Notes under the pieces: generated by a model
The model's input: the letters and a program-made list of their open reading frames with translations, nothing else
Told to the model about the DNA's origin: nothing
The model's database searches: none
Made by a program: the position numbers and the translations under genes
Shown: piece after piece, positions 7,342 to 57,509 of the stretch
Numbering within the stretch: position 1 is the first letter of the stretch
Layout of the letters: each line of letters opens with the position of its first letter
Source: a phage
DNA: 64,000 bases
Assembly: GCA_024613925.1 (NCBI GenBank)
Contig: GCA_024613925.1_4713.1
Strand: one strand, 5' to 3'

Positions 7342-7617
7342 TTAATCCTCCATGAGTTCCTTTATTTCTTTTACGATCTGTGTAATACGCGACGGTGTAA
7401 AGCCGTACCGTTTAGCTATTTCCTTATTGCTCGTGCCATTTAAATGGTCGCGATATATCATTGCACGATTTAGTATTTTGATATCGTCAGAAAGTTCTAA
7501 TAGTCTAGCGACCTCACGATCGTCAAGTTTGTTTTTCGTGTTTAAGCTATGTTCTATTACGCTTAACTCAGCCTTACAACTCTTGATAAAATCACCAACG
7601 GTGGTAATAACTTGCAT
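7342..7617 (-). CDS. small HTH protein resembling sigma-70 region 4
   Basis: 91 aa; ...DDREVARLLELSDDIKILNRAMIYRDHLNGTSNKEIAKRYGFTPSRITQIVKEIKELM matches the region-4 pattern (helix, then T-x-x-E-I-A, then S-R-I-x-Q-I) from memory. Confidence 0.45.
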   Translation of the reverse strand: MQVITTVGDFIKSCKAELSVIEHSLNTKNKLDDREVARLLELSDDIKILNRAMIYRDHLNGTSNKEIAKRYGFTPSRITQIVKEIKELMED

Positions 7618-7637
7618 AAATCACCTATTTCCGTGTT

Positions 7638-7659
7638 GCGGGTGGATGCGCCCACCCGC
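7638..7659 (-). terminator. GC hairpin (gcgggtgg-atgcg-ccacccgc) after thyA
   Basis: 8-bp perfect stem 10 nt after the thyA stop. Confidence 0.45.
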
Positions 7660-10221: not shown

Positions 10222-10330
10222 GTTTTATTCCTTAGTAGTCCTAGTAGTAGTATTGAGGAATTTCACCTCATTAGATAGTCTAATTTAGTAATGTTTTACT
10301 GAGCTATTGTTAACCCCAATACGAGCATAA

Positions 10331-10737: not shown

Positions 10738-12063
10738 TCACTTCAGTAGCTTAGACGTCGCCATGCTTCGCGCTAACGCAACGTCATACGCATCCATGAT
10801 TGCGTCACCGATAGCGGTATGACGGATCAGCGGAATACCCATGTCTGGATACTCTTTGGTGCCTAAGATGGATACCGGTTTGTCTTGATACGCAGCAATC
10901 ATCGAACGAATATCCTGAACCTGGTTATAACGACAAACTGGCTTAAAGCCCGCTTTACGGAACCAATGCTCTAATTGAGGCCAATCTGTTTCACCGCGAG
11001 CAAGATAATAGAAGGTATCTTTACCGTAGTATTCGGTCATTTTGTCACGAATACTGTTGACGAACGCATTTACTTCGGCGATGGCTTCTTTATAACCCAT
11101 TGCCTTACAATGTTGAAAACAATAGTCGCGCGCTTCCTTTGGTGCTTTGGTTTGCCACCATTCTACTGTTGATTCACTGATACGACCACCGTCAGCGATT
11201 TGACCATGAACGTCAGGGAAGATATCTATACGCGGACCGTTAACAATGGATTCTGGATTAGCCAGATCGAAGAACACGATACCGATTTCCAGCAATACTC
11301 CATTCTTTTCCAGACTAAGGTTTTCAACATCTAAACAAAATGCAGGCTTCTCTACCGCTAACGGCTCGAACGAATGGTTGCTGGTATCCGATTCGGTTTT
11401 AAGTTCGACGACAACCGGATCGGTATCCGTAGGTTTCAGTTCTACTACAGCATCATCGAGTCCCGATAATGAAAAATAGTCTTCGAAGAAATCGGGTATC
11501 GTCATACCATGCAAATTGATATCGCAATCTTCCAACCATTGCTTCAACTGGTGCTCACCGGCATGAATCGCTAAACGGCATGGTCCGGAACGATCATCTA
11601 GCGCTGCATCGATCCAGAAGAAAGCACGTATAAGTAAGTAAGGATTATACTCCGCGATGATTTCTTGGCTAGCCGAGAAATCGTACACCATTAGTTGTAT
11701 TATTCCCTTACGTGTGTTATACGGATCAACTTTCAATCGACGCACTATTTCTTCTACGAATTCCAGCGCACGCGTGTACGATGTGGACCCACCTTGTTCA
11801 TACGAACATATACCCGTCAAAAGTTCCTTATAGGACGCATATGGAACCATAGGCGATAATTTGTACGACAGTTCAGTATTGTAATTATCGCATAATTTCT
11901 TCGGGGCGATAGCATCCTGTATCGCTGTAATAAACGCCGGTCCATCAATATCAAACAACCATCCTTGACGCCGGTATGCAGTGTATCGTAATAACGCACC
12001 GATAACTGCCTGGGGCGGTGTATATTCTTTCCCGTTAATTTCAAACAGTAGTTTGCTCATCAT
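10738..12063 (-). CDS. protein with C-terminal DEDDh-type (DnaQ-like) 3'-5' exonuclease domain
   Basis: 441 aa; C-terminal half has FCLDVENLSL (D-x-E) and HTAIGDAIMDAYD (H-x-A-x-x-DA); N-terminal about 230 aa unassigned. Confidence 0.55.
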   Translation of the reverse strand: MMSKLLFEINGKEYTPPQAVIGALLRYTAYRRQGWLFDIDGPAFITAIQDAIAPKKLCDNYNTELSYKLSPMVPYASYKELLTGICSYEQGGSTSYTRALEFVEEIVRRLKVDPYNTRKGIIQLMVYDFSASQEIIAEYNPYLLIRAFFWIDAALDDRSGPCRLAIHAGEHQLKQWLEDCDINLHGMTIPDFFEDYFSLSGLDDAVVELKPTDTDPVVVELKTESDTSNHSFEPLAVEKPAFCLDVENLSLEKNGVLLEIGIVFFDLANPESIVNGPRIDIFPDVHGQIADGGRISESTVEWWQTKAPKEARDYCFQHCKAMGYKEAIAEVNAFVNSIRDKMTEYYGKDTFYYLARGETDWPQLEHWFRKAGFKPVCRYNQVQDIRSMIAAYQDKPVSILGTKEYPDMGIPLIRHTAIGDAIMDAYDVALARSMATSKLLK

Positions 12064-12075
12064 AACACCTTTTCA

Positions 12076-23779: not shown

Positions 23780-25354
23780 TTACAATTCAAAATCTTCATC
23801 GATAACGCGCTGGGTAAGCACTTTGTCGCTGAAGAACTCCACCTTGCGCTGATGGTATTTACGGTGCGCTTCAATAGAAGTACATACCAGATACCAGAAC
23901 GTTGGTGTCATTCCTTCAAACTTCCCTTTCAGCTGACGCAGTCGCCCCAACACCTGAATGTTACCGGTTCGTGACCCCATCGCTAATGTCATGAACGTCA
24001 TCACCAAGTCAGGAAGGTCGATACCTGTACCTGCCGATTTCACGGTTGTAACGCTGATATCGTTATCCAACAAGACCATGAAATCTTCTTCAGCAGTATA
24101 AGGACCAATCTCTAACTCAGGAATACGTTCACTGAGATAATGCGATAACGACTTACACATATCAACGGTTGCACAATACACCAGCATCTTCATACCTTCC
24201 TGATACTGGTTCATGAAACCTTTGATGATAACCGTATAGATAAAGTTGAAATAGGCGAGTTTGAGTTGCTTGTTCTTCATGATAGACTGTTCGAATATCG
24301 TGTGAGAATAAGAACCCCCAAACCCTTTGTATCTGACTTTATCTGTACTGCGTAGTCGATACGTCACGGCATTTACCGCAATGTATTTCTTGTATTCGCA
24401 TTTCGCATAACGCGCTTCTTTCGGATACATCAAATACAACATCCGCTCGATGAACGGATCGTCAGACACCGCTGTTGCCGACAGATAGATGATTTCCGGA
24501 ATATTTGCATAGCACTTCACTTTGAACAAGAAATGCAAGGCTTCATGGCATTCATCGTGGATCAACAACCCAATACCTGTTTTCTCCCAGAACTCGGCGG
24601 GATGGAAAACATAAGGTGCGACACAATTGTTCTTTTCATAATCGGTTATGTATCTCTGAAACATGTTCAGCGAGAATAACGCAATTTTGAAATCCAGCTC
24701 ACCTTGTTCCACCAACGTCTGGAATTCCAGCATGCTGTAACGAGGAATGTCTGGATGCGGTGGGTCAGATTGGGCTGTACCGCGTATCTCGATAACATCG
24801 CCTGGTTCCATACCGAAGAAACTTAGCAACGAGCTGCGCCATCCAGGCATGTATCTCGGTGACAGAATAATGCCCGTCCGTACACCACGTCGGAAGGTGA
24901 TCTCCTGCGACATGGCTGTTTTACCACTGCCCGTGCCTGCGGTGTTTAGGCTCATTCTGAAGGGGGTATCCTTACCCCCATCCATGTACTCCAACCATTC
25001 TTGCTGATCTTCGCGCCACGGGAACTTCCATTTCTTTACGAACTCCACTTCCTTACCTGGCACCGGATCGTGATAAACGATTTCCAACCACTCTTTTCGG
25101 ATTCCTCGAGAGAAGATAAAATCCAAAAACGATTTCAACTGTTCACGGAGTAAGTATACCTCGCTATAATCGCTTCTTGCCGCGGCATACGTGTTTATGG
25201 TATCGGTAACCATTCTCCGTGTACGAGGGTCACGTCGTTTCCTCAGATGCAAACAACGGTCTCGAAGGTAATGGCCGATAAGATGGGCAAATCGAAGTCC
25301 GTATCCGCTCAGCCTCATGCCATGCGAGAAGACGTCGATACGAGCTAACTTCAT
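23780..25354 (-). CDS. SF2 DExH-box helicase-like protein
   Basis: 524 aa; Walker A GTGSGKT, DExH (LIHDECHE), motif III LSAT. Confidence 0.6.
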   Translation of the reverse strand: MKLARIDVFSHGMRLSGYGLRFAHLIGHYLRDRCLHLRKRRDPRTRRMVTDTINTYAAARSDYSEVYLLREQLKSFLDFIFSRGIRKEWLEIVYHDPVPGKEVEFVKKWKFPWREDQQEWLEYMDGGKDTPFRMSLNTAGTGSGKTAMSQEITFRRGVRTGIILSPRYMPGWRSSLLSFFGMEPGDVIEIRGTAQSDPPHPDIPRYSMLEFQTLVEQGELDFKIALFSLNMFQRYITDYEKNNCVAPYVFHPAEFWEKTGIGLLIHDECHEALHFLFKVKCYANIPEIIYLSATAVSDDPFIERMLYLMYPKEARYAKCEYKKYIAVNAVTYRLRSTDKVRYKGFGGSYSHTIFEQSIMKNKQLKLAYFNFIYTVIIKGFMNQYQEGMKMLVYCATVDMCKSLSHYLSERIPELEIGPYTAEEDFMVLLDNDISVTTVKSAGTGIDLPDLVMTFMTLAMGSRTGNIQVLGRLRQLKGKFEGMTPTFWYLVCTSIEAHRKYHQRKVEFFSDKVLTQRVIDEDFEL

Positions 25355-27357
25355 AACGTGATTACATCCTCCGGTTTAGGTTCTTTACGCGGTAACAGCA
25401 TGTAGTCGATCGGATGATCCGGCTTCATGGTTGGGATATAACTGTTCGGGTTTTGGAACGCATCCAGCTGCTCTTGGTGAGCGAACTTCATACTCAAGGA
25501 GCGCATGTTCATGTTCTTCTTGAAGGTACTGAAGTATCGTGTTGTTCCCTGTTTCGGCATGCGATAATCTTTCGTGTGTGGCGAACGAATCATGCTGGCG
25601 TAGAGAATAACATCGAGATGCGAAAGGTTCATTCGCAGACGCTGGGCACACAGACGATGCCAATAGTACAGCACGTTTGCAACTTCCTCCGGTGTTGCTT
25701 CGTCTTCCGAGAGGAATCCGGCACTGAAAGAACATTTCCCGAATTTGAACTCACGTTCGATTTCTTTTGCGTACTCCATCATGTTTTTGTGGATTAACGG
25801 CATCTGGAATAACGTACGTGAATTGTCCCAGTGTTTCAAGTCGAAAATCACAATCCCGTCAGACGTCACTTCCCAGCTATGGCGTTTGAGGTAACGGATA
25901 AACGCTTTACTCGGTACAACAGGACGACCACAGAAATCGAAATTGACTTTGAGCTTACGATAGCTTTCATCTTTCCTGTCGTAAATCTCCATATCGCAAA
26001 GCGTCATGTTAAACAGACGTTGCGGTATCAGCGAACTGATTTCTTCCGCTTCCGCTACGTCATACAACATGTTCGCAAGACCTAACTTCATCTTAATCAA
26101 CACGTGTTTACCTTTCAGCTCACGTGCGAGTTTGATGTCGTTCATGTTCTGGCTGTAGCGAAGGATATGTTGATATTCCGGTGGGATTGGTGCTGTGGAT
26201 ACCGTTGACGAACCATCGTGATGTTTGGTAGAAAGAATGTTCTGCGTTACCTGTTGCGAACAGGTACGTGCTGCACCATCACCGACATTATCAGTCAATG
26301 CGAAGTTATGACTTAATTCACCGTAACACGTCGTACATACCCCAGCAGGATCGGGATGATGACAATAGTTAACGGAGCGCATGCGTACCGTCGTACCAAT
26401 CAATTCTTTCATGTGTGGCTGTATCGCTACCAACGAACCGTCATCACGAATAATGAATCGACCGTGGAAGCCACGCAGGTCGGTCTCATCACGGATTGGC
26501 ATCGGGATGGTCTCTTTACTACCACAATCACCAGGATGGAGTCGCTGTACAACCGCCGTCGCTATCTGAAGTTCACGACCGAAATATTCAGACTTTTTAA
26601 TCTGCTCTTTGTTGAACAGCAACGATTTCGCCGCAGAACGACTTTCTTTCAAGCTGTCAGGAAGAGAGATCAAACCGGCTGCATACGACCGCATTACCGG
26701 ATCGCGGAATATCTCGGAGTTAATATCGGTCAAGAATCCACGCATCCCAATACACTGCAGCACCTGCCCAATCGAAACGTGTTCGGTTCTTACCGCACGT
26801 GCAATAGGGTTTGCATGTAGCGTTTTATCGGTGCTCAGTACCTTCGTCAGTTTCTTGTATGCGCTTTCAATGCCTTCGCGGGTGGGTTCCGCTTCGGCGA
26901 TGATTTTCTTAACTTCGGGATGTACGGTAATCTGATAAAAATCGTCCGCGCAAATCGTTGTTACGTATTCCTCCAACGCATACGTAAAGAAGTTATATAC
27001 ATTGTTAAACATATCGAACAATGCTTTCCAGAGAACCTCACGATTCTCTTGCGGATAAGCATACATGCATTGACGATACGCGGCGCTTTGCAACGCAACC
27101 GATGAACCCGCTGTGAACTTGCGTTTATCAACCAGGTTCTCTTTTGTCAGTGGGGTCTCAGGATACATGCGATGCACAGACCAGTGCATGTAACTAAAGA
27201 AAATGCGTCGCGCACGCAATTCATGAACGCCATCGTCCATCTCGATATACACACGGTCATTAGGCTGTGCCCACTCGAACACCTCATCAACCGGCCAATG
27301 CATAAGCTCGCGTGCCCTCACACGACGTTTCGTGGTGGTTGTCTGTGTTGTAATCAT
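25351..27357 (-). CDS. RNA polymerase beta-prime, C-terminal fragment
   Basis: 668 aa; MRSVNYCHHPDPAGVCTTCYGELSH resembles E. coli beta-prime VRSVVSCDTDFGVCAHCYG; also DS...SAAK and IGMRGF (cf. DSGARGSAAQ, AGMRGL). Alignment is by eye from memory. Confidence 0.65.
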   Translation of the reverse strand: MITTQTTTTKRRVRARELMHWPVDEVFEWAQPNDRVYIEMDDGVHELRARRIFFSYMHWSVHRMYPETPLTKENLVDKRKFTAGSSVALQSAAYRQCMYAYPQENREVLWKALFDMFNNVYNFFTYALEEYVTTICADDFYQITVHPEVKKIIAEAEPTREGIESAYKKLTKVLSTDKTLHANPIARAVRTEHVSIGQVLQCIGMRGFLTDINSEIFRDPVMRSYAAGLISLPDSLKESRSAAKSLLFNKEQIKKSEYFGRELQIATAVVQRLHPGDCGSKETIPMPIRDETDLRGFHGRFIIRDDGSLVAIQPHMKELIGTTVRMRSVNYCHHPDPAGVCTTCYGELSHNFALTDNVGDGAARTCSQQVTQNILSTKHHDGSSTVSTAPIPPEYQHILRYSQNMNDIKLARELKGKHVLIKMKLGLANMLYDVAEAEEISSLIPQRLFNMTLCDMEIYDRKDESYRKLKVNFDFCGRPVVPSKAFIRYLKRHSWEVTSDGIVIFDLKHWDNSRTLFQMPLIHKNMMEYAKEIEREFKFGKCSFSAGFLSEDEATPEEVANVLYYWHRLCAQRLRMNLSHLDVILYASMIRSPHTKDYRMPKQGTTRYFSTFKKNMNMRSLSMKFAHQEQLDAFQNPNSYIPTMKPDHPIDYMLLPRKEPKPEDVITL

Positions 27358-29422: not shown

Positions 29423-31591
29423 TTAGCTTTCGCAGTCATCTGCGTCGATGATTTGTCCGCCAGCAACGTTCAGTTGATGATACAGAATCCTCAACGCACG
29501 GTTGCCGCCAATTGGATACTTCTCGAAGTTGGTCGCAATAGGAATCGCTGACGGTTTATCGGTCGCATAGATGCTTTCAGTGATGCTATCCACCTGTTTT
29601 GGATTGTTCGCATAATCCATAAAGACGCTTGCGAACCATCCGCCAGCAAAGGCGGTAACTTCGCGATGCTCAGATTCACCACAGTAACGAGTTGGTTGCT
29701 CTTTACCCGGAGAACTGTATTTATCGCTATTACTGAGTTTCGACGGTAATCCGTGCGCTTGCAGTTTAGGAATACCCACCGCTGACCAATCGTTCGCCGT
29801 CTTCTCCAGCATCATGATGTACGTGTCACCGATCGCAATATCGTTCTTGGTTGTCCGCCACTGCCCGGAACGCCCACGATACCGTACAGGACCTTTCTTC
29901 AACGGGAACTCACGAATCAGATTCTCCATACGTTCTGAACCTGCTGCGATACTGTCCGTCGGGATATAAACTTCCGTACCGTGGCGTTGTACGTACCGTA
30001 AATGATCCCATTTATCCTCATCCGTGATACAGTATTTTTCAACAACCTGTTCCACGAATTCAGGACTGACGATATAGTAGTAGCGCATCAGTGTGTTCCA
30101 AGCGGTCTCCAGATCGCCTGCATCCATCACCGGTTTCAGTTCACGCATGATCTGATCACCAACGCCGTTGATGTACGGTGCGTTAACACGACTTAAACTC
30201 ATCCTTTTGATTACCGTACTATCGTCGAACATGAAGTCCGCAACATTACCCCATTGGTCAACCGGCATTTCATCGTCTTCCATGATGTCGGTTACAACGA
30301 ATTTATCACCCGCCATACCGGTGAATTTAAACCCGATACCTGGAACAACGTCATACGTGTACGTGATGGTCACACGCCAATCATCGAGATTCTCTTTGCG
30401 GTAATCGCGGGTCGGTAGCACATGACGTAGCTGTCCGTTGGGATTGCGGATATCAATACCATGTTCAGCATCAGCCAGGTTCAACCACCACATCACCGTT
30501 TGATGATGACGTATCGGCGTACCAACGCGTTCACGTTCGTACTTACGAACAGCATCCTGAATTCGGGTGTAAAGCAAACCGATCGCGTTCTCGTATTTCA
30601 GGAATTGACGATACGGAGGACGCATCTTCTCTTCCATCATAATCGCACGCTCGCGGGCTTGACGTCCAGAACGACGATGTCGATCGCTGACAACATCGAT
30701 ATCCGTTACACGCGCATTCGGTTCCGCGTAAGTGAGATCATCGTAAACATAATCCACACGCTGAAGGTTACACGTCATCATGTCAACAACGCTGAGGATA
30801 GGATCGATTTCGCGTGTTGCTGCAAGCAACCCATCTTTACGAATACGCTCGCCGTTCTCGGGTATTGCTTGGTATACTTCGTCATCACCGTAGAGATTGA
30901 TTGGGTATCGCGATTTACCTGACGTGATTGTTCGCTTCTCAATACCTGTGCTGGTGAAATGCTTCAATACACCACGACGGGCAACGCCACCATCTTCAAT
31001 ACATTGGTAGAAGCTACCGAAACACACCTTGCAATCGCGACCGTAACCCCACTCACGTGTTTCTTGATTGATCGCTGGGCTTTCCATCAAACGAGAATAT
31101 CGCGGTACGATCTGGCCTCGACGGAGGGAATGGAACAAGTTGGTTGGTCGAAAACGGAAACCGTACTGCTGATGCATGATGTGATGCTCAGGCACTTCAA
31201 GCAAGCGTAGCTCGTGACGGTTACCATCCTCTTGGTTTTCGTACAGCACGTAATGCATCGTGTTTGTTTTGATGCTGTTTGCTGTATGCCCCGGTTGGAA
31301 ACGTGGGATGATATCTATGATGCGAGATTCGACTGGAAACTCTACTGACCACGTGTTCTGTCCGTACTGGTATTCGATCCCCGTCGTCAGTCGGGACGGT
31401 TTCGCATCTTTGATAACCAACGCTTGGCTAAGATGTCCACCAAACATCGCAGCGCGCTGTGCTGAGTTATAATGCAATAGCCCGTTAAGTCCAGTCCCTA
31501 CGCCAGTATACTCCTGTTTAATGGGAATGATTTTACCTTCAGCGATTGCCTGCTTCACAGATTCATAAAGAGGTTTTTCTTTATAATGCAT
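29423..31591 (-). CDS. RNA polymerase beta subunit (C-terminal two-thirds homolog)
   Basis: [36 protein letters not shown] resembles E. coli beta [50 protein letters not shown] resembles GGQRFGEMEVWALEAYG. Track ORF reaches 31756; start moved to Met56 (31591, AGGAAG upstream) to clear the divergent plus gene. Confidence 0.65.
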   Translation of the reverse strand: [722 protein letters not shown]

Positions 31592-31622
31592 AGGACTTCC
31601 TATTATCGAATTGAGGTACGTC

Positions 31623-31976
31623 ATGTCTAACACGCCCCTGAACGACTTTCTTAAGACAAACCCCGATGACCTCATCCACGATCTTGATTTCAGGAACGTT
31701 GTTGAGATGCATCTGGAATATTTCAAAAATGCCGGACTGGTCTCTACGATAGACATACCACCCGAACGTGCCTACGAATTCGATGGTAACTTTTATGGAT
31801 TGTGCCGTGTTCTGCTCGGTGAGGGCAGTGAACCAATGCACTGGATAACCATGAGACTCAATGGCTATCGTGACCCCACGGAATACACCGCCGATGTTCT
31901 AACCATGAAGATTGTCGATACAAGCGCAATCAACACATTAAAACAACAGTACCGCACAATCCACTACAGCGCTTAA
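31623..31976 (+). CDS. hypothetical protein
   Basis: 117 aa from ATG 31623 (GAGGT upstream); track lists a TTG start at 31611. Confidence 0.5.
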   Translation: MSNTPLNDFLKTNPDDLIHDLDFRNVVEMHLEYFKNAGLVSTIDIPPERAYEFDGNFYGLCRVLLGEGSEPMHWITMRLNGYRDPTEYTADVLTMKIVDTSAINTLKQQYRTIHYSA

Positions 31977-43448: not shown

Positions 43449-43694
43449 TTAGCAATGGTTGTTAGTTGCTTCTATTTCGTCAAGATACGGTTCTACGTCA
43501 TCGCCCTCCACGAATTCGTTGAACCAACAGTCAATGGTAGAAATAACCGGCGACTGGTGTTCACATTTCTTAGATACCTTAAAAGGTACGTTATTATCCA
43601 TCATACCGAGTTCGGGTCGAAAACGCCCGAAATGTTTCGCAGTCCAAATATCTGGGACGATATGGTTGTTCATCGTAGTGTTCAGCATGAGTCG
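43449..43694 (-). CDS. RNA polymerase beta-prime N-fragment, exon 3 (or separately translated 79-aa segment from ATG 43688)
   Basis: Reading from 43694: RLMLNTTMNNHIVPD resembles E. coli beta-prime ARALMMSTNNILSPAN, directly downstream of NADFDGD in the alignment. Begins CGAC after G43695. Confidence 0.5.
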   Translation of the reverse strand, partial: RLMLNTTMNNHIVPDIWTAKHFGRFRPELGMMDNNVPFKVSKKCEHQSPVISTIDCWFNEFVEGDDVEPYLDEIEATNNHC

Positions 43695-44028
43695 CTACCT
43701 CATACCCGCAGCTTTACCTGCAGCTTCCGGTGTTACCGGAATGACCAGAATACATCTTATCCATATTCCAAATGGAACGTAGGACTTCCGCGCTGGATCT
43801 CGCTTGAGACCACGTATTCGTTGAACGTTCTCCTGAACGGAGCTTCGCTGCTGATCGAACATTGTCACGTACGGTAGGCGTCCCCGAAGGGATTGTCATT
43901 GAAGCCGCGTACATCCGCTACCTTGTTTCTACCTTATCGGTTCCTCTTACGAGGCGTAGCGGCCTTAGCCCTTCCCAGCAATTCACGGAATCCAAGCTCT
44001 TCCTTTCGGAAGGCAGGGCCTATGATTA
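43695..44028 (-). ncRNA. group I intron-like core, copy 2
   Basis: Minus-strand P (AATTGCTGGGAAG, 43983..43971), Q (GATCAGCAGC, 43856..43847), R (GTTCAACGAATACG, 43826..43813), S (AAGATGTATTCTGG, 43758..43745). P4 and P7 pairings hold with compensatory changes relative to copy 1. No ORF on coding strand. No IGS identified for its 5' junction. Confidence 0.5.
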
Positions 44029-44041
44029 AGCGTCACCGTCG
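44029..44041 (-). CDS. micro-exon CGACGGTGACGCT encoding the catalytic D-G-D of beta-prime
   Basis: Only GAYGGNGAY in the 725-nt interruption; follows G44042; joins exon 1 (...AAC GCA GAT TT) in frame to give NADFDGDA; CGACGGU is complementary 7/7 to ACCGUCG at 44375..44369 (P10). Confidence 0.55.
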
Positions 44042-44419
44042 CTGTTTATCGACTATATCTTCATCCTCGTTGCGAGGAGTCTCCCGTTTTGGTCTGTGTT
44101 TAACAGAGCCTACTCTACTCGACATCGCGTCTTTCGATAGTCTGTGAGCACACATCTTAACGAACATTCGTGGATTCCTAAACAGGTGAATGTTCTTGTT
44201 GAGATGCTTCGCTGCGGATTATTCCCGTCCTACCTCTTTTACCATATCCAGTTCATTACGCTGGCCCTCATCTGTGTCACCACGATGAGTTGGTGTGTAG
44301 TCCGATTACAGAAACTTCCCGTCAATTAGAGAGTTTTAACTATGTTCCTGTTACCAGAAACCAGATCCCGACGGTATCAATAAATCAACGTAAGTTATTG
44401 AATTTATTGAAAAAAACTG
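44042..44419 (-). ncRNA. group I intron, copy 1
   Basis: Minus-strand P (AATTGACGGGAAG, 44327..44315), Q (AATCCGCAGC, 44220..44211), R (GCTCACAGACTATCG, 44149..44135), S (AAGATATAGTCG, 44061..44050) match the classical consensus elements from memory. IGS GGAUCUG (44368..44362) pairs with exon-1 end CAGAUUU with U-G at the splice site; ends with G44042. Confidence 0.7.
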
Positions 44420-45675
44420 AAATCTGCGTTATAACCTTTGAGGATCATCACGCTTAACCCGATGGTGTTATCCTGCGGATCGCGTTTAACCTTGGTGATT
44501 TCAAGACATTGGTTACTGCTTCGGTCAAGTGATGGGTTTCGAACAAAACCACACACAATCCCATCGAACGGTGTATCAGCAATAAGCTCATCGTGCAGCT
44601 CGCTCATCATCGGATGATAATTACGGACATGTTCCGCAACGAACGCACGTGCTGCTCTCGGTGAATACCCACGATGGAATAGCTTGGATTGGATATGTTC
44701 TTTATTGGTTAAAGTAAATGGTGCGTATGGGAAATGCAGATGATAATAACGATGGTTCGCTGTTATCGAACTGATTACGGTACGCGTGGTGAATGGATGT
44801 AATGTACCTAATATGTTTTTACGTGTGATACCTTTCTTCTTACCGATGAACTCATCGAAAATCGCCGCATGGTATTGCAGCAGCTTCAATTGCACTTTCG
44901 CCATCCAGTTTTCTTTCTTTCTGGCGCTCAAAGGTGTTGTTGGATGATAGATGCTATTCAACGTACCGATAGCATCGATCGCACCTTCCATTTTGCTATC
45001 CGCATAACGACCGGTTGGCGTATTCTCGATAACGAACATCATGGCCGCAGGAAAGCTGATATACTGGCTGAAGAACTTATCACGATGGATACGGATGAAT
45101 TCTCGTAGTGTGTCAACTTTCTCCGTGTTCTTCGGTCCACGTAACGTCGGTCCTTTATACAAGATCTCCATGATGCGATCGAAGTTCTGTATAAAACTAT
45201 TTACGCCACGACGTATCCCGAATACATCGAATTGCTGCTCCAGATAGTTCTTGAGTTCGATGGGTCGTTTTACATTTGGACGGTAACTGGCATCAATGAG
45301 CCACGTCATCGTTTCAAAGCTTTTGATATTCAACTCGCTTGCCAGCACGAGATGGACCAACGGGTTAATGAACGCATCGATTCCTTCAGGAACGCGCGCC
45401 CAAACCGTCGAACGAATCTCTTGTTCTGCTGGGTAGGTTACAACCGTTTTACAGTTTGGACACACCGTGCCGAGCAGCTCACCACGATTGTAGAAACCAC
45501 AACCACATTGTGGTGTGATATCCAACGTATCGCTGGAGTAAACACGGGTGATAAAACTGTTTAATTTCTTCTTCTCTTCGACGACTTTTGTATCGTAATC
45601 GTTCAACAAAATCGGCGTAAAAGGAAGTTCTGCGAGCTGTCTATCGAAACTCACGATATCGAGCATGATGGCCAT
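44420..45675 (-). CDS. RNA polymerase beta-prime N-terminal fragment, exon 1
   Basis: GKKKGITRKNILGTLHPFTTRTVI resembles E. coli [31 protein letters not shown] resembles LNRAPTLHR; unspliced ORF ends ...GYNADF then SFFQ-stop, i.e. inside NADFDGD. N-terminal C-x-C...C-x-x-C zinc motif. AGGAGA upstream of ATG 45675. Confidence 0.7.
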
Positions 45676-45767: not shown

Positions 45768-47663
45768 TTAGAACAGGTTGAATGCCCCACCCATGTTGTT
45801 ACCGCCAACATTCGGACGATCGCTACGTGCGTAGATGTTGCCGGAGATGTTACCCAGACCACGAGCACGTGCTGCCATGTTACCACGAACAGCGGTACCT
45901 GCCAGGTGCTGGATGTTCTCAGGACGGATGGTGAAGCCAGCATCAGCCGCAGCTTCGATCAGCGCCTGCAGTGCTAACGGATCGAAGTCGTAACGCATTG
46001 CCCAGCCGGTTTGTTCCCAGCTACCAGACAGAACACGATCAATGATTTCGTGACGAGCGACAACACGCTGAGACATCGTCATATCGGTACGGTCGAAGCT
46101 GTCTTCCCAAGCTTCTACGGTATCCGGGTTAGTGATGTTCATCATGTACAGATCGTCCATATCACGAATATCGTGACGGTGACCATCCTGGTGGTTGTAG
46201 TAACCCAGCGGGATACGGTTACCGGTAGCGTAGACCAGCGGTTGGCCGTATTGATATTTCTTGCTGAAGCAACCCAGGGTAGTATCATCGAAGGCACGGT
46301 AGAGTGCTTTGTAACCTTCGGAGATTTCTTGAACTTTACCGTCAACGTTGCCCGTAAAGATCTTCTCAGCCGCCGGGATCATACGCAGCAGCCAGCTATA
46401 CTCGCCTTCTTCCGGTACGTCGATAGAAATCAGCAGAGACGGATACAGAACCTGTTGCAGGAACTTGTAAATCTGCTCGTTGGTTTGCGTAGACAGATCC
46501 AGCGGTGCAGTCACTTCAGGATCCAGCACCATCGCCAGAGCACCTGGGTTATGCGGACCAATACCACGAGCCGCGTTGCTGATTAAAGACTGTGCCCATG
46601 CCATGCCGCTGTTCAGCGTAGCGATGGTACCAATCAGACCCAGCACGAAGCTGTTCGGTGTGAACGCATCCAGCTCCAGCGGGTAAACGCTGGTCATCAC
46701 GTAACGCGGCTGGTACTGTACAGTCGGCGGTACCGGATAGCCGTTAACCAGAACAGGGCCTTGGTTGAAGGTCGGGTTCTGCGGGCTGTAGGTCAGGTCA
46801 ATGTAACCGGTGGTGGCGACCAGACGCTGTTGACTATCGTAATCGCTCATCGCTTGACGGATGCGGTTAGAGATAGTTACAGTGATGTCAGAACGCACAG
46901 GGTTACCAACAATATCGCTGTCCTGCATACCGCTGGTGTTGTACTGAACGCTGCTGATTGGCTGATCGCTTGCCATCATGCCCAGGTTGAACTGCGGCAG
47001 ACCCAGTTTATCACCGAGACGGATTTCGATCGCGGTTTGGATTGCGTTATCTGCAGCAGACAGCAGGGTGGTTGCCAGATGCGCAGATTCAGCGGTGATT
47101 TCATTGGTCACCACAGCCAGACCAGCGATACGAACAGTACCGTTAGACTTACCGCCAATAGCTGAATACATTGCCGCCATGACTTCGTTGATGAACGTAC
47201 CGTTCAGGTTATCAACCCAGGTACGCGGTACCAGAATGTTACCATGCGGACCTTGTTCTTCACGACGCGGCAGCGGAGCCAGACCAGCAACCAGCGGCAG
47301 GACGTAACCGAAGAAGTGGTTATGATCACCAACTTTTGCACCGCTCATAACAACCAGGGTCGGATACGGTACGCTGTACTGGTTCGGGTCAACCGCAACA
47401 AAGATGAAGTCGTCTTTGAACTGGGTATCTTCCAGATATTTCTCCATCAGACGACGGAGATTCAGTACCTGCTCGGAGCCGGTATTACGGCTGATACGAC
47501 GGCTCAGTGTACGGTTGATCGTACGCATCGTATGAGTTACTTTAGGACGGTCGGCAAAATCTGCAGCGGTTTCCAGCGCCTCATCAGCACGTTGTGCGGT
47601 GCGGGTTTCAGCTGCACGAATTTCTACATTATCGTTACCGTTATTACGTACGTCTAAGCCCAT
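45768..47663 (-). CDS. abundant structural/shell-type protein; candidate chimallin (phage-nucleus shell), alternatively a virion protein
   Basis: 631 aa; lies immediately upstream of the beta-prime N gene, which I recall is the chimallin/nvRNAP arrangement in phiKZ; own promoter motif and strong hairpin. No sequence-level confirmation possible here. Confidence 0.3.
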   Translation of the reverse strand: MGLDVRNNGNDNVEIRAAETRTAQRADEALETAADFADRPKVTHTMRTINRTLSRRISRNTGSEQVLNLRRLMEKYLEDTQFKDDFIFVAVDPNQYSVPYPTLVVMSGAKVGDHNHFFGYVLPLVAGLAPLPRREEQGPHGNILVPRTWVDNLNGTFINEVMAAMYSAIGGKSNGTVRIAGLAVVTNEITAESAHLATTLLSAADNAIQTAIEIRLGDKLGLPQFNLGMMASDQPISSVQYNTSGMQDSDIVGNPVRSDITVTISNRIRQAMSDYDSQQRLVATTGYIDLTYSPQNPTFNQGPVLVNGYPVPPTVQYQPRYVMTSVYPLELDAFTPNSFVLGLIGTIATLNSGMAWAQSLISNAARGIGPHNPGALAMVLDPEVTAPLDLSTQTNEQIYKFLQQVLYPSLLISIDVPEEGEYSWLLRMIPAAEKIFTGNVDGKVQEISEGYKALYRAFDDTTLGCFSKKYQYGQPLVYATGNRIPLGYYNHQDGHRHDIRDMDDLYMMNITNPDTVEAWEDSFDRTDMTMSQRVVARHEIIDRVLSGSWEQTGWAMRYDFDPLALQALIEAAADAGFTIRPENIQHLAGTAVRGNMAARARGLGNISGNIYARSDRPNVGGNNMGGAFNLF

Positions 47664-49078: not shown

Positions 49079-51232
49079 TTACTCTGCGGTTTCTCGCTTC
49101 GGTAAATAACTTGCTGCGATGTCTTGGGCTAACAATGTATTGTTTTTATTCGAGATGAAAATACCGTAACTTTCCATTAACGCGTAATACGAACGAACGA
49201 GCGTAGAGATCAATCGACGAATATCCATACCTTGAATAAAGATATCAGGAAGCCCGGAGGCTTCGATCACCGGTAATGGTATCGTTAAGTTGCTTATCGT
49301 TTTCTTATCGTTACGTACAATCCAATCACGGAAACGTTGTTGTAACCCTTTATCCTCCCAGGAATCAATCCAATCGTTAAGAAGCGTTTTGTTCTTCGTC
49401 GCCAACGGCACACGAACCCCAACATAGGGTGGTTCCTGGCAATGGCCGTACGATTGAGCAAACACCTCTTCCCACATATCGTAAGACTGTTTCGTTACCG
49501 CAACATGTGGTTTCACTTTAACACGTGTTAAGAAATCAGGATCACCACGTTTCATGGACTCAACGATTTCGTTTTCTAACGAGATAATATCGTCAAGAAC
49601 CAATCGAATGCTGATCTTCTCATTACGTAACAGCTTATCCATGATACCGCACATCATGCGTTCAACACGTTTGACGATCATTTTTGGTGCTGACGCATCA
49701 CGCATAACCGGACCTTTCAATTCCAGCTTCGGTGGATTGATAGGAACCCCTTCACGCATGGTCATGTAACCGTAATAGTTTTTACCCATCGAGGTTAACG
49801 ACAGAATCAAGAACATATATTCGTTCTTCATTTCCATCACGTACATATGCTCTTTCGCTACACCGATATTACCAGAACACATCGCCATCAGATGAACCGT
49901 AATCTGCGTAACCAGATAGATAAGCGTGTTTGCTAAGCGCGTCGAAACTGGATTGATCTCCATATTTCCAAATCGCCACTGAACCCACTCCTGGCAGGTA
50001 AACACCGTCGAGTCGGTATCAGACAACACGCCCACTTCACGGATTGCCGACGGAAAAGCATAAACGCCAGCCGGTTGGTTCTCGGTACGCCAGAACGCCA
50101 TAATCAAGTCAGCATAACTTTGGATGCGTTGCAGCATTAATTTTGTTGTTGCTGCGGTAAGACGATAACCAAGCTCATTTCCTTTTTCTAGCGCTACGTA
50201 AATCGCTTCCCCATTCAAGAACTCCGTGCATTGTGCTGTAATCCAAGCGACCGTGTTGTTATCCATGGAAGCAATAATGGCTTTAGCCTCTTCCATCGTT
50301 TCAACAGGTTCGGATGCCAGCTCACACAACGAGTCAAGAAAATCTCGAACAAATTCAGGATTAAGCTCACGTAACGAGTACAGGTTATTGCTGTACATGT
50401 AGCAGGCGCGTTCCAACGGCGTTAAACCGGTAATTAACTCCCGGATAGTCAGTTCTTTCTCTGGGTCGAAAGTATACCGATGTAAGCATTTCGATACGTT
50501 AGCCCAAACCTCTTCCGGCGTAGGGTAATGCAGTTTGTATTTTACCATTACCTGCTCAATGGCTTTACGATCGCTGTTACGGACGATGCTTACGATGTTT
50601 TCAATTGCGATATCACAATCGTAATAATGGAAATTGCCCGCAAGGAAGCGTTCGTTGTTCGCATTGGCTGAACCTGAAGCACAGCGACATGTTGTCGTTA
50701 GACTCGGATGCGCAATCGGATTATAAAAAGGGTTGAACTTGGACGCCTGGGTTCCTGACAAACTGTTGTTGTCTAACTTGGTGTTGGTTTGTCGTTTATC
50801 GTGTAGCTCCGCTTCGTCTTTACGTCCGTGTGCTTGCGCTATCGACATTTGTTTCTTTTGTTTCTTACGCAACTTACCGTTTTCAACCGCAAAGTCGCTT
50901 AGCACACTGGAACGTGTTTCACGTGGATAACAGTTAGCCCACACCGGCGTGATAATTAAATTATTTTCTTTAATATCGTTGAAGTATTGGCTGAACTTGA
51001 TGACTTCTTTTTCTCGATTTCCTTCGGTACGCTGCGTTAGTACAAGGCAGTCGGGATCAACCATCCCGTATTTTCCACCAGGACGAACCGTTTCAAGAAC
51101 AAACTGCAACGCTTCCTGCTGAGATATCCCACGCATGCGCATTAAGAACAGGGTATAATCCTGTACCGCTTCTTTGGTCATATCCAACGTACGACCATAT
51201 CCGTTTTCATCGTAAAAGAACGGATTTTCCAT
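49079..51232 (-). CDS. polymerase-like protein (family B DNA polymerase-type motifs B and C), no exonuclease domain
   Basis: 717 aa; TKLMLQRIQSY (cf. phi29 KLMLNSLYG) followed by GVLSDTDS (cf. YGDTDS). GGAGGA upstream of ATG. Function is tentative. Confidence 0.4.
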   Translation of the reverse strand: MENPFFYDENGYGRTLDMTKEAVQDYTLFLMRMRGISQQEALQFVLETVRPGGKYGMVDPDCLVLTQRTEGNREKEVIKFSQYFNDIKENNLIITPVWANCYPRETRSSVLSDFAVENGKLRKKQKKQMSIAQAHGRKDEAELHDKRQTNTKLDNNSLSGTQASKFNPFYNPIAHPSLTTTCRCASGSANANNERFLAGNFHYYDCDIAIENIVSIVRNSDRKAIEQVMVKYKLHYPTPEEVWANVSKCLHRYTFDPEKELTIRELITGLTPLERACYMYSNNLYSLRELNPEFVRDFLDSLCELASEPVETMEEAKAIIASMDNNTVAWITAQCTEFLNGEAIYVALEKGNELGYRLTAATTKLMLQRIQSYADLIMAFWRTENQPAGVYAFPSAIREVGVLSDTDSTVFTCQEWVQWRFGNMEINPVSTRLANTLIYLVTQITVHLMAMCSGNIGVAKEHMYVMEMKNEYMFLILSLTSMGKNYYGYMTMREGVPINPPKLELKGPVMRDASAPKMIVKRVERMMCGIMDKLLRNEKISIRLVLDDIISLENEIVESMKRGDPDFLTRVKVKPHVAVTKQSYDMWEEVFAQSYGHCQEPPYVGVRVPLATKNKTLLNDWIDSWEDKGLQQRFRDWIVRNDKKTISNLTIPLPVIEASGLPDIFIQGMDIRRLISTLVRSYYALMESYGIFISNKNNTLLAQDIAASYLPKRETAE

Positions 51233-55383: not shown

Positions 55384-55584
55384 TTAACGACCATCCAATT
55401 TCAATGAAGGATGGTTGACGATATGTGCGTGTTTTGCTGGGTCATATAGCTGATATGGAAAATAGCCATGCCATTGACGGCCTTGGCATTTCGTACACAG
55501 AAACTGACCAACACCTTGTCGATTCTCGTAAGCGAGTTCGGTACTATCAACATGTTCGCAACGTTCGCAGATAAACAGCGACAT
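55384..55584 (-). CDS. small zinc-ribbon protein
   Basis: 66 aa; CERCEH...CTKCQG (two CxxC pairs). Confidence 0.45.
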   Translation of the reverse strand: MSLFICERCEHVDSTELAYENRQGVGQFLCTKCQGRQWHGYFPYQLYDPAKHAHIVNHPSLKLDGR

Positions 55585-55621: not shown

Positions 55622-56602
55622 TTAGAAAAGCAAGAAACCGCTATTCTTCGCTTCTGCTACAGTTTCGTCACCGACTTTCGGTGCTTGTTGACGTGCGTTA
55701 CGGTGTTCGATGTAACGTTTCGCTTCGTCCGCGATTTGTTTGATAATACCCCCTAAACGATCAGTACTTAAAACAAACGACGTCGCTTCACGAATTGGGC
55801 TGCTTTCAGGCACAAAACCATCGCAGCTGTAAATAGCGCTAACGCCCATGACTTTTGTCGCGTCTTTCGGATAAAGCGTACAGAAAGCAATCGGGCTATC
55901 GTTCTCTTTCGTCCAATCGTATCCCATGAACGTATTCAGTTCGGTGATCGTTGGTTCCAAACCGGTAACACGTGGATGGTTTAAGAAGTTTTCCAGGTCA
56001 GCGCTGTCAAGACGGCGGTTCTCGCCAGAAAACAGAACACAAAGCTGGCTGATAACAACCTGCACGTCCAGGTTGACATCCTGCTCCGATTTCCCATTTT
56101 CGCCATTCATGTGATAGCTAACAATCACTGGACGTTTCAACCCTTCTGCAGCTGCCATCAGTCCTTTGAAGGTGCGATCGGCGTTGATCGTTTGACGCTC
56201 ATCATCGAACGAGGCAACGATGCAACACACCACACGTTCACCGCGTTCCAGCAGGTTAGCAACCAACGCAGGACCGGCAACAGAACCTGAACCACCGCTC
56301 AAACTAAAGACCACGATATTAAATTTACCTGGCGTATGCTTATTGAGAATACCTGGGATTTGTGAACAGATCAGTTCAGCGTTCTCGTCACGCTTCTTAC
56401 CAGAACCGTCTAACTCACGACCGGCTGCATCTTTAAAGATGTAAATATGATCGTCGCCCAGTGTGCTATCGCGTAGGTTAGCGCGGCTGGTATCGACATA
56501 CGTCATGCTGTGTAATCCTTTCGCGACTTCGCCTTCAAATGCCGAGCCGATTTCGCCACCACAACCACCGACAGCCCAAATATGTACTTGGTTCTCTTGC
56601 AT
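55622..56602 (-). CDS. phuZ: tubulin/FtsZ-like GTPase (PhuZ-like)
   Basis: 326 aa; N-terminal IWAVGGCGGEIG (FtsZ GGGxG-like) and SLSGGSGSVAGP (tubulin signature-like). Confidence 0.65.
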   Translation of the reverse strand: MQENQVHIWAVGGCGGEIGSAFEGEVAKGLHSMTYVDTSRANLRDSTLGDDHIYIFKDAAGRELDGSGKKRDENAELICSQIPGILNKHTPGKFNIVVFSLSGGSGSVAGPALVANLLERGERVVCCIVASFDDERQTINADRTFKGLMAAAEGLKRPVIVSYHMNGENGKSEQDVNLDVQVVISQLCVLFSGENRRLDSADLENFLNHPRVTGLEPTITELNTFMGYDWTKENDSPIAFCTLYPKDATKVMGVSAIYSCDGFVPESSPIREATSFVLSTDRLGGIIKQIADEAKRYIEHRNARQQAPKVGDETVAEAKNSGFLLF

Positions 56603-56666
56603 GTGAACTCCTAACTTAATATGTATTTAACGCACAATGAATCTTTCTTTGCTAAAGGGGTGACCC

Positions 56667-57509
56667 ATGGGTGCTATTGACTACAGTGTAGATCGTATCT
56701 GTCGTACAATACCGGCAGATATCCTACAGTATTGCTATATCGATCGTTACGACTGGCGTAATCGCTATCCTCGTTCCGTAGAAGACATCATTACCGATTG
56801 GGTAATCCGTAAACGGGTTATCGGCGACATCGATATCTACGGGGGACTACAAACCGTTATCCCCCTTGATGATGCAGGTGTCACTATCGAAGAAGTCACC
56901 ATTAACTGTTATGTTTTCCACATTCCGTTGGAAGCCACGCAAGGACGTTACATCACGTCTGCATTATCCATTATTTCAGGGAGCGTGAACAACTACGGAA
57001 TAAACTATAACGGGCAATGGGGTGCTTTCAACCAAACCCAGTTTCAACGTCAGCTTTGTGGGTGGAACCCCGCAAGCAACACGTTACAGCAAGGGATGAA
57101 CGCATTCGGTCCCATGAACGTTCTTAGTACAGCCAACGTTGATATCATCGCCCCTAACACCATCATGGTGAACAACGTCACGCCTGTACAATTTCCCCTG
57201 AGTCTACGTTGTTTCCTTGCCCACGATCCGGAACTTACCAACCTCAGCATGGAGGTTTGGAACGACTTCTACAAACTCTGTTTATACGCCACACAAAGCG
57301 ACATCTACAACAGAACCGTTATCCGTCTTGACAGAGGTGTTACAGCACAAGGACAAGAAGTCGGTGCATTCAAGGAATACATCGATCGCTTTGCTGATGC
57401 TGAAAACACATATCAGGAATTCCTGAACGAAACGTGGGCTGGCGTTGCTGCCTGGAACGACCCACAAACTAAACGTCGCGCCATTCGATTACAAACCGGT
57501 TACTTCTGA
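56667..57509 (+). CDS. hypothetical protein
   Basis: 280-aa ORF. Confidence 0.55.
   Translation: MGAIDYSVDRICRTIPADILQYCYIDRYDWRNRYPRSVEDIITDWVIRKRVIGDIDIYGGLQTVIPLDDAGVTIEEVTINCYVFHIPLEATQGRYITSALSIISGSVNNYGINYNGQWGAFNQTQFQRQLCGWNPASNTLQQGMNAFGPMNVLSTANVDIIAPNTIMVNNVTPVQFPLSLRCFLAHDPELTNLSMEVWNDFYKLCLYATQSDIYNRTVIRLDRGVTAQGQEVGAFKEYIDRFADAENTYQEFLNETWAGVAAWNDPQTKRRAIRLQTGYF

What the first reader, a model, noticed from the sequence alone, without database searches (positions are those of the whole stretch)
55622..56602. Tubulin-like PhuZ gene indicates a nucleus-forming phage
The ORF has an FtsZ/tubulin-type glycine-rich N-terminal motif (VGGCGGEIG) and a tubulin-signature-like SGGSGS loop. 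Together with the split RNAPs this suggests a phage that builds a nucleus-like compartment positioned by a tubulin spindle.
Basis: partly seen in the sequence, partly recalled or inferred. Interest (0 to 1): 0.5.

Follow-up and report, generated by a model that had tools for sequence, protein, structure and literature searches.

The report
Known PhuZ tubulin of Goslar-like phage
The gene is the phage tubulin PhuZ of a close relative of E. coli jumbo phage Goslar. It differs by one amino acid from a protein whose filaments, mutant phenotype and structure are already published, so the call is correct but not new.

Summary
The ORF is real. It lies on the minus strand at 55622..56602 and encodes 326 aa with both quoted motifs. 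These are VGGCGGEIG (residues 11-19, T1 loop) and SGGSGS (102-107, T4 tubulin signature).

It is 325/326 identical (E229D) to Goslar PhuZ (HOV27_gp234, called gp201 in the 2022 paper). It also matches PDB 9pm9, "PhuZ Tubulin from phage Goslar".

- **Family:** PHROG "tubulin PhuZ" matches full length at E=3e-68.
- **Fold:** an AlphaFold model (pLDDT 87) matches 9pm9 (TM 0.91). Next come phiKZ and 201phi2-1 PhuZ, then TubZ, CetZ, FtsZ and tubulin.
- **Catalytic residues:** the T7-loop aspartates D199 and D202 are invariant in the family.
- **Selection:** 21 of 22 nucleotide differences from Goslar are synonymous.

The window is collinear with Goslar 124248-189188 at about 91-98% nucleotide identity. 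It also encodes the nuclear-shell protein chimallin (45768..47663) and three split RNA-polymerase pieces. The nucleus-forming inference therefore holds.

One detail needs correcting. In Goslar, PhuZ forms a vortex that rotates the nucleus, not a bipolar spindle that centres it.

Verdict: already known, low interest.

The parts
55622..56602 (-). phuZ coding sequence, 326 aa (stop codon at 55622-55624); ortholog of Goslar HOV27_gp234 / gp201
   Evidence: ORF list. 325/326 identical to Goslar PhuZ. PHROG 4733 E=3e-68. PDB 9pm9 E=4e-220. Tubulin/FtsZ fold.
56608..56612 (-). Shine-Dalgarno AGGAG, 5 nt upstream of the ATG
   Evidence: Read directly from the sequence.
56546..56572 (-). T1 loop / N-terminal glycine-rich nucleotide-binding motif VGGCGGEIG (aa 11-19)
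   Evidence: Motif position. G12, G13 and G15 conserved in at least 90% of 24 family members.
56282..56299 (-). T4 loop / tubulin signature SGGSGS (aa 102-107)
   Evidence: Motif position. G103 and G104 invariant; S105, G106 and S107 at least 90% conserved.
55997..56008 (-). T7 loop DSAD (D199-D202), the putative GTP-hydrolysis-activating aspartates
   Evidence: D199 and D202 invariant in the alignment. Goslar PhuZ D202A is a dominant-negative mutant that abolishes the vortex and most rotation.
55622..55762 (-). C-terminal long helix (aa 281-305), short helix (312-320) and tail ending GFLLF
   Evidence: Secondary structure of the model, with low confidence for aa 323-326. G322 nearly invariant, followed by a hydrophobic end across the family. 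A role in filament contacts is inferred from my knowledge of the 201phi2-1 and phiKZ PhuZ structures.
45768..47663 (-). Chimallin (ChmA), the nuclear shell protein; the defining gene of nucleus-forming phages
   Evidence: phrog_4795 'nuclear shell protein' E=1.8e-54. Collinear with Goslar HOV27_gp246.
25351..27357 (-). Split multisubunit RNA polymerase piece (beta/beta'-like)
   Evidence: phrog_3015 E=6e-170. Goslar gp165 is annotated 'RNA polymerase beta subunit'.
29423..31756 (-). Split multisubunit RNA polymerase piece (beta/beta'-like). The mechanical ORF may start upstream of the true start; the Goslar annotation is 722 aa.
   Evidence: phrog_3295 E=2e-180. Goslar gp171.
44404..45675 (-). 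Split RNA polymerase piece, exon 1, followed by a group I intron
   Evidence: phrog_2987 E=2e-117, covering profile positions 1-419 of 478. Goslar gp247.

Best explanation
This is phuZ, the phage tubulin of a Goslarvirus (family Chimalliviridae). The product binds GTP through the T1-T6 loops of its N-terminal domain. It polymerises head to tail, so that the T7-loop aspartates (D199, D202) of one subunit complete the GTPase site of the next. GTP hydrolysis makes the filaments dynamic. During infection the filaments surround the chimallin-bounded phage nucleus as a vortex-like array, push against the cell membrane and rotate the nucleus. Rotation probably spreads docking capsids evenly over the shell for DNA packaging. 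The gene is an accessory that raises efficiency rather than an essential one.

Shown here: the gene's identity, the fold, conservation of the catalytic residues, purifying selection, and the presence of chimallin and split RNAPs in the same window. Shown in the literature for the 99.7%-identical Goslar protein: filament and vortex formation, and the D202A phenotype. Inferred: that this variant behaves identically, and the role in capsid distribution.
For: Identity and family:
- ORF with motifs at the stated coordinates.
- 325/326 identical to Goslar PhuZ.
- PHROG 'tubulin PhuZ' full length at E=3e-68.
- PDB sequence hits: 9pm9 at 4e-220, phiKZ PhuZ 3zbp at 8e-29, 201phi2-1 PhuZ 3r4v at 6e-15.

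Structure:
- AF2 model pLDDT 86.9, pTM 0.86.
- Foldseek top hit is 9pm9 'PhuZ Tubulin from phage Goslar' (TM 0.91). It is followed by phiKZ and 201phi2-1 PhuZ (TM about 0.8), then TubZ, CetZ, FtsZ and tubulin.

Conservation and selection:
- Invariant D37/T38/S39, N42, G66/G68/R71, G103/G104, N140, Y163, N166, D199 and D202.
- 21 synonymous versus 1 nonsynonymous difference from Goslar.

Context:
- Window collinear with Goslar at 91-98% nucleotide identity.
- Chimallin, three RNAP pieces and the DNA polymerase lie in the window.

Experiments on Goslar PhuZ:
- GFP-PhuZ forms a vortex. D202A lowers the fraction of rotating nuclei from 97% to 29% without changing nucleus position. The review agrees.
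Against: Nothing contradicts it. Three caveats apply. The Pfam Tubulin domain scores 29.9 bits, just under the curated cut-off of 33. That probably explains why many database copies are labelled 'hypothetical protein'. No experiment exists on this exact E229D variant or in its actual host, which appears to include Salmonella. Cell geometry or host factors there could change filament organisation. A role for Goslar PhuZ in capsid trafficking is not established.
Confidence: 0.95

Rival explanations
1. One reading: PhuZ builds a bipolar spindle anchored at the cell poles that pushes the phage nucleus to midcell, as in Pseudomonas phages 201phi2-1, phiKZ and phiPA3.
For: It is the same protein family with the same catalytic residues. 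Bipolar spindles and midcell centring are documented for the Pseudomonas phages. What decides spindle versus vortex is unknown. This variant's hosts appear to include Salmonella, where no imaging exists.
Against: The protein is only about 23-27% identical to the spindle-forming PhuZs in the structure-based alignments but 99.7% identical to Goslar PhuZ. Goslar PhuZ forms a vortex. The Goslar nucleus is not centred, and D202A does not alter its position.
Confidence: 0.04
2. A TubZ-type partition tubulin that segregates a plasmid or prophage-plasmid genome (a type III TubZRC system), as in Clostridium botulinum phage c-st or Bacillus pXO1/pBtoxis.
For: TubZ structures share the fold (c-st TubZ E about 2e-13, B. 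thuringiensis TubZ E about 2e-10). Goslar-like genomes turn up in bacterial assemblies, possibly as carrier states.
Against: The PhuZ structures match far better than TubZ: E 1e-22 to 1e-58 at 23-99% identity, against about 1e-13 at 14%. No TubR-like DNA-binding gene flanks it. The neighbours are a 66-aa four-cysteine ORF and a virion portal-assembly protein. I did not specifically search for a tubC-like centromere repeat array. The genome is a chimallin-encoding lytic jumbo phage.
Confidence: 0.01
3. A decaying or non-functional tubulin remnant. PhuZ is dispensable and has been lost repeatedly in Chimalliviridae.
For: PhuZ is non-core and absent from about a third of the family. The Pfam score is below the gathering threshold.
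Against: The reading frame is full length, with all nucleotide-binding and T7 residues intact. The synonymous to nonsynonymous ratio against Goslar is 21:1. The identical protein is seen on 488 contigs. PhuZ was detected by mass spectrometry in Goslar preparations.
Confidence: 0.01

Closest known systems
PhuZ of Escherichia phage vB_EcoM_Goslar (HOV27_gp234 / Goslar_00201 'gp201'; PDB 9pm9 and 9pmk; Birkholz et al. 2022, Cell Rep, PMC9891218)
   Same: 325 of 326 residues, the same length, the same gene order and flanking genes, and the same D199/D202 T7 loop. The predicted fold superposes on the solved structure at TM 0.91.
   Different: One conservative substitution, E229D, in a variable surface column of the C-terminal domain, plus 21 silent changes. 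The surrounding genome is 91-98% identical, with a few indels. This exact variant is the one seen most widely in the database, on 488 contigs, mostly from enterobacterial assemblies.
PhuZ of Pseudomonas phages phiKZ (gp039; PDB 3zbp, 3zbq) and 201phi2-1 (gp59; PDB 3r4v, 3rb8, 3j5v)
   Same: The tubulin/FtsZ fold with a long C-terminal helix and tail, the T1/T4/T7 motifs, and a chimallin-encoding jumbo-phage host genome. Sequence E-values are 8e-29 and 6e-15; TM is about 0.8. In phiKZ a homolog of the neighbouring gene lies close by (gp042 against gp039).
   Different: Only 23-27% identity (26.96% to gp59). Those proteins build a bipolar spindle that centres and rotates the nucleus and traffics capsids. 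The Goslar type builds a vortex that rotates but does not centre.
TubZ (plasmid and prophage partition tubulins), CetZ, FtsZ and eukaryotic tubulin
   Same: The shared superfamily fold and GTP-dependent head-to-tail polymerisation logic. Pfam PF00091 matches at E=8e-7.
   Different: 12-16% identity. The cellular roles differ (DNA segregation, cell shape, division). No TubR-like gene lies next to this one.

Membership tests
PhuZ (phage tubulin of Chimalliviridae) | Full-length sequence match to the PhuZ family profile and to characterised PhuZ proteins | tested here: met
   PHROG 4733 'tubulin PhuZ' E=2.9e-68, residues 1-323 on profile positions 1-321 of 323. Goslar PhuZ 99.7% identical. phiKZ and 201phi2-1 PhuZ at E=8e-29 and 6e-15.
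PhuZ (phage tubulin of Chimalliviridae) | Tubulin/FtsZ two-domain fold | tested here: met
   AF2 model pLDDT 86.9, pTM 0.86. Foldseek: 9pm9 TM 0.91, phiKZ and 201phi2-1 PhuZ TM 0.77-0.81, then TubZ, CetZ, FtsZ and tubulin, all at probability 1.00.
PhuZ (phage tubulin of Chimalliviridae) | GTP-binding loops: T1 glycine-rich motif and T4 tubulin signature | tested here: met
   VGGCGGEIG at aa 11-19 and SGGSGS at aa 102-107. G12, G13, G15, G103, G104, S105, G106 and S107 are invariant or at least 90% conserved.
PhuZ (phage tubulin of Chimalliviridae) | T7-loop acidic residues (DxxD) that activate GTP hydrolysis in the neighbouring subunit | tested here: met
   D199 and D202 are present and invariant. 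D202A is dominant-negative in Goslar.
PhuZ (phage tubulin of Chimalliviridae) | Extended C-terminal helix and tail that contact neighbouring subunits in the filament | tested here: inconclusive
   The model has a helix at aa 281-305, a second at 312-320 and a low-confidence tail. G322 and the hydrophobic C-terminal end are conserved. The inter-subunit contact itself was not modelled. This feature is taken from my knowledge of the 201phi2-1 and phiKZ PhuZ structures.
PhuZ (phage tubulin of Chimalliviridae) | GTP-dependent polymerisation into dynamic filaments during infection | not testable with these tools
   Shown experimentally for the 99.7%-identical Goslar protein. Not shown for this variant.
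Pfam PF00091 Tubulin/FtsZ GTPase domain | Score at or above Pfam's curated gathering cut-off | tested here: not met
   29.9 bits against a cut-off of 33, E=8.3e-07, residues 9-151. This is a sensitivity limit of the general model for a divergent clade. More distant homologs do carry PF00091, and the fold evidence is unambiguous.
Nucleus-forming phages (Chimalliviridae) | Encodes chimallin (ChmA), the nuclear shell protein | tested here: met
   Window 45768..47663 (-), phrog_4795 'nuclear shell protein' E=1.8e-54. Collinear with Goslar gp246.
Nucleus-forming phages (Chimalliviridae) | Split multisubunit RNA polymerase genes | tested here: met
   Three beta/beta'-like pieces at 25351..27357, 29423..31756 and 44404..45675, with E-values from 1e-117 to 1e-180.
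TubZ type III partition system | Adjacent TubR DNA-binding adaptor and tubC centromere repeats | tested here: not met
   The neighbours are a 66-aa four-cysteine ORF with no significant family and a portal-assembly virion protein. No TubR-like match was seen. Centromere repeats were not specifically searched for.

The most novel reading that the evidence does not exclude
The database places this exact PhuZ variant mostly in Salmonella, E. coli O157 and Shigella assemblies, where Goslarviruses may persist in a carrier-like state. In those hosts the filaments might organise differently or serve another purpose than in Goslar-infected E. coli, for example positioning or partitioning a persisting phage nucleus or genome. 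The 66-aa four-cysteine ORF just downstream on the same strand (55384..55584) might modulate filament organisation, which would bear on the open question of what decides spindle versus vortex.
Probability: 0.04. Interest if true: 0.5.

Novelty: already known. Interest (0 to 1): 0.08.

Why it matters
It matters mainly as a correct annotation. It marks the window as part of a nucleus-forming Goslarvirus genome. It also shows that the many identical database copies labelled 'hypothetical protein' in Salmonella, E. coli and Shigella assemblies are PhuZ. It opens no new biological question, because the protein's filaments, mutant phenotype and structure are already published for a variant that differs by one residue.

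Tried and rejected
- **Primary paper for PDB 9pm9/9pmk:** not found in the library. The entry title came from the fold search.
- **Complete E. coli genomes:** megablast of the gene found no match, so the window does not come from a complete RefSeq E. coli assembly.
- **Sigma-70 promoter and intrinsic terminator scan around the gene:** counts were no higher than in shuffled sequence. This says little, since these phages use their own RNA polymerases. The terminator annotated in Goslar downstream of the 66-aa ORF was not picked up by the simple rule.
- **Neighbour 56667..57509 as a PhuZ partner:** considered because the adjacency recurs in Erwinia phage Ea35-70. Rejected because it is a virion portal-assembly protein with a solved structure.
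- **Rivals:** TubZ-type partition tubulin and pseudogene readings were both rejected on the evidence given under rival explanations.
- **Rfam at gathering threshold:** missed the group I intron. It appeared only at the E-value threshold.

Full report
**Observation.** The six-frame ORF list shows one ORF at exactly 55622..56602, on the minus strand, 326 aa with an ATG start. An AGGAG Shine-Dalgarno sits 5 nt upstream of the ATG. Both quoted motifs are present. VGGCGGEIG lies at residues 11-19 and SGGSGS at residues 102-107.

**Identity.** Pfam's general Tubulin/FtsZ GTPase model matches residues 9-151 at E=8e-7. Its score of 29.9 bits is just under the curated cut-off of 33. The phage-specific PHROG 4733, "tubulin PhuZ", matches end to end at E=2.9e-68.

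Against the sequences of solved structures:
- 9pm9 matches at E=4e-220, identical except for one residue.
- phiKZ PhuZ/TubZ (3zbp) matches at 8e-29.
- 201phi2-1 PhuZ (3r4v, 3rb8, 3j5v) matches at 6e-15.

**Source of the window.** Megablast against phage genomes finds only Escherichia phage vB_EcoM_Goslar, at 97.7% identity over the gene and its flanks. The whole window is collinear with Goslar 124248-189188, with individual segments 91-98% identical. The RefSeq record annotates the orthologous gene, HOV27_gp234, as "tubulin PhuZ". The two proteins are 325/326 identical, differing by E229D. Of the 22 nucleotide differences in the gene, 21 are synonymous. That indicates strong purifying selection.

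One search of the large protein collection returned 23 homologs. In the 24-sequence alignment the following residues are invariant:
- D37, T38, S39 and N42
- G66, G68 and R71
- G103 and G104 (T4)
- N140, Y163 and N166
- D199 and D202 (T7)

The T1 glycines (G12, G13, G15) are conserved in at least 90% of the sequences.

AlphaFold2 on this alignment gave a confident model, with mean pLDDT 86.9 and pTM 0.86. Foldseek against the PDB ranks the hits as follows:
- 9pm9, "PhuZ Tubulin from phage Goslar (locally refined monomer)", first (TM 0.91)
- phiKZ and 201phi2-1 PhuZ (TM about 0.8)
- phage c-st TubZ, CetZ, many FtsZ structures, Bacillus TubZ and a eukaryotic tubulin, all at probability 1.00

The tubulin/FtsZ fold is therefore predicted, and the hypothesis is not refuted.

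**Context.** The window also encodes:
- chimallin, the nuclear shell protein, at 45768..47663 (phrog_4795, E=2e-54)
- three split RNAP beta/beta'-like pieces at 25351..27357, 29423..31756 and 44404..45675 (E-values from 1e-117 to 1e-180)
- the phage DNA polymerase at 49079..51232

All are collinear with the Goslar annotation. Chimallin, not PhuZ, is the defining marker of nucleus-forming phages. PhuZ is an accessory gene absent from about a third of the family.

**Mechanism.** For the Goslar protein, called gp201 in the paper, the published experiments show the following:
- The nucleus rotates at about 50 nm/s, in the direction set by filament orientation.
- The T7-loop mutant D202A polymerises at much lower expression and acts as a dominant negative.
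- D202A abolishes the vortex and cuts the fraction of rotating nuclei from 97% to 29%.
- Nucleus position is unaffected, and the nucleus is not centred.

The 2025 review summarises this in the same way. It also notes that what decides spindle versus vortex is unknown.

D199 and D202 are intact in the window protein. I infer that it hydrolyses GTP at the inter-subunit interface, forms dynamic filaments and rotates the nucleus. That behaviour is shown for a protein differing by one residue and is inferred here. The role in capsid distribution is only proposed in the literature.

**Rivals.** Three alternatives were considered.
- *TubZ-type partition tubulin.* This is unlikely. The PhuZ structures match far better than TubZ. 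The neighbours are not TubR-like.
- *Decaying gene.* This is excluded by the intact motifs, the 21:1 synonymous ratio and the wide occurrence of the identical protein.
- *Bipolar spindle.* This cannot be excluded for untested hosts, but it conflicts with the data on the near-identical Goslar protein.

**Novelty.** The exact protein sequence is already in public databases, on 488 contigs up to 259 kb long. These come mostly from Salmonella enterica, E. coli O157 and Shigella assemblies, where it is labelled "hypothetical protein". A 2025 study reported the expansion of Goslarvirus from 1 to 237 genomes found in bacterial assemblies. PhuZ was also detected by mass spectrometry in Goslar preparations. 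The finding is a correct recognition of a known, experimentally characterised and structurally solved protein. It is already known and of low interest.

**Seen in passing.**
- *Intron in the RNAP gene.* The RNAP piece at 44404..45675 covers only profile positions 1-419 of 478. It is followed by a group I intron at 44042..44367, matching Rfam RF00028 at 44.6 bits and E=9.5e-10, below the gathering score. A small downstream ORF at 43449..43688 matches profile positions 424-475 of the same family.
- *Missing homing endonuclease.* Relative to Goslar, the window lacks 1065 bp (Goslar 168217-169281) that contain the HNH endonuclease ORF gp186. This looks like a presence/absence polymorphism of a homing-endonuclease gene.
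- *Neighbour gene.* The divergently transcribed neighbour at 56667..57509 is a virion "Portal Assembly Protein gp233" with a solved structure, and a homolog of phiKZ gp042.
- *Small downstream ORF.* A 66-aa ORF with two CxxC pairs lies 37 nt downstream of phuZ on the same strand. It precedes the terminator annotated in Goslar.

Noticed in passing
window 43449-45675 (minus strand); intron core 44042-44367; junction at about 44043-44046: The split RNAP subunit gene at 44404..45675 is interrupted by a group I intron (Rfam RF00028, 44.6 bits, E=9.5e-10, below the gathering score of 50). Its C-terminal exon appears to be the small ORF 43449..43688, which matches phrog_2987 positions 424-475. Compared with Goslar, the window lacks exactly the 1065 bp that carry the HNH homing-endonuclease ORF gp186. 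It therefore has an endonuclease-less version of the intron. A second weak RF00028 hit (43786-43990, 16.7 bits) lies between the intron core and the exon and is unexplained. The splice sites were not determined.
   Followed up: partly
window 55384-55584 (minus strand): A 66-aa ORF with two CxxC pairs (C6/C9 and C30/C33, zinc-ribbon-like) starts 37 nt downstream of the phuZ stop on the same strand. It lies upstream of the terminator annotated in Goslar, so it is probably co-transcribed with phuZ. Its only family hit is weak (phrog_1191, E=6e-4). Its function is unknown.
   Followed up: partly
window 56667-57509 (plus strand): The divergently transcribed neighbour of phuZ (280 aa, phrog_3179 'unknown function') is nearly identical to PDB 11ed chain U, 'Portal Assembly Protein gp233'. 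It is homologous to phiKZ gp042 (E=3e-24). The phuZ-neighbour adjacency recurs in Erwinia phage Ea35-70 (genes 206/207) and approximately in phiKZ (039/042).
   Followed up: yes
window 7351-7651, 10302-10308 and 11357-12071: Differences from Goslar outside the finding. About 300 bp are present only in the window, beside the thymidylate synthase gene. About 290 bp of Goslar (134269-134562, overlapping gp145) are absent. About 700 bp inside the 3'-5' exoribonuclease gene (gp147) are too diverged for megablast.
   Followed up: no
window 55622-56602 (database annotation): The exact protein sequence occurs on 488 public contigs (longest 259 kb), largely in Salmonella enterica, E. coli O157 and Shigella draft assemblies, where it is named 'hypothetical protein'. 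The Pfam Tubulin score falls just below the gathering cut-off (29.9 against 33 bits), which probably explains the missing annotation.
   Followed up: yes
window 29423-31756 (minus strand): The mechanical ORF for this RNAP piece is 777 aa, whereas the Goslar annotation (gp171) is 722 aa and the PHROG match begins at residue 79. The true start is probably an internal ATG.
   Followed up: no
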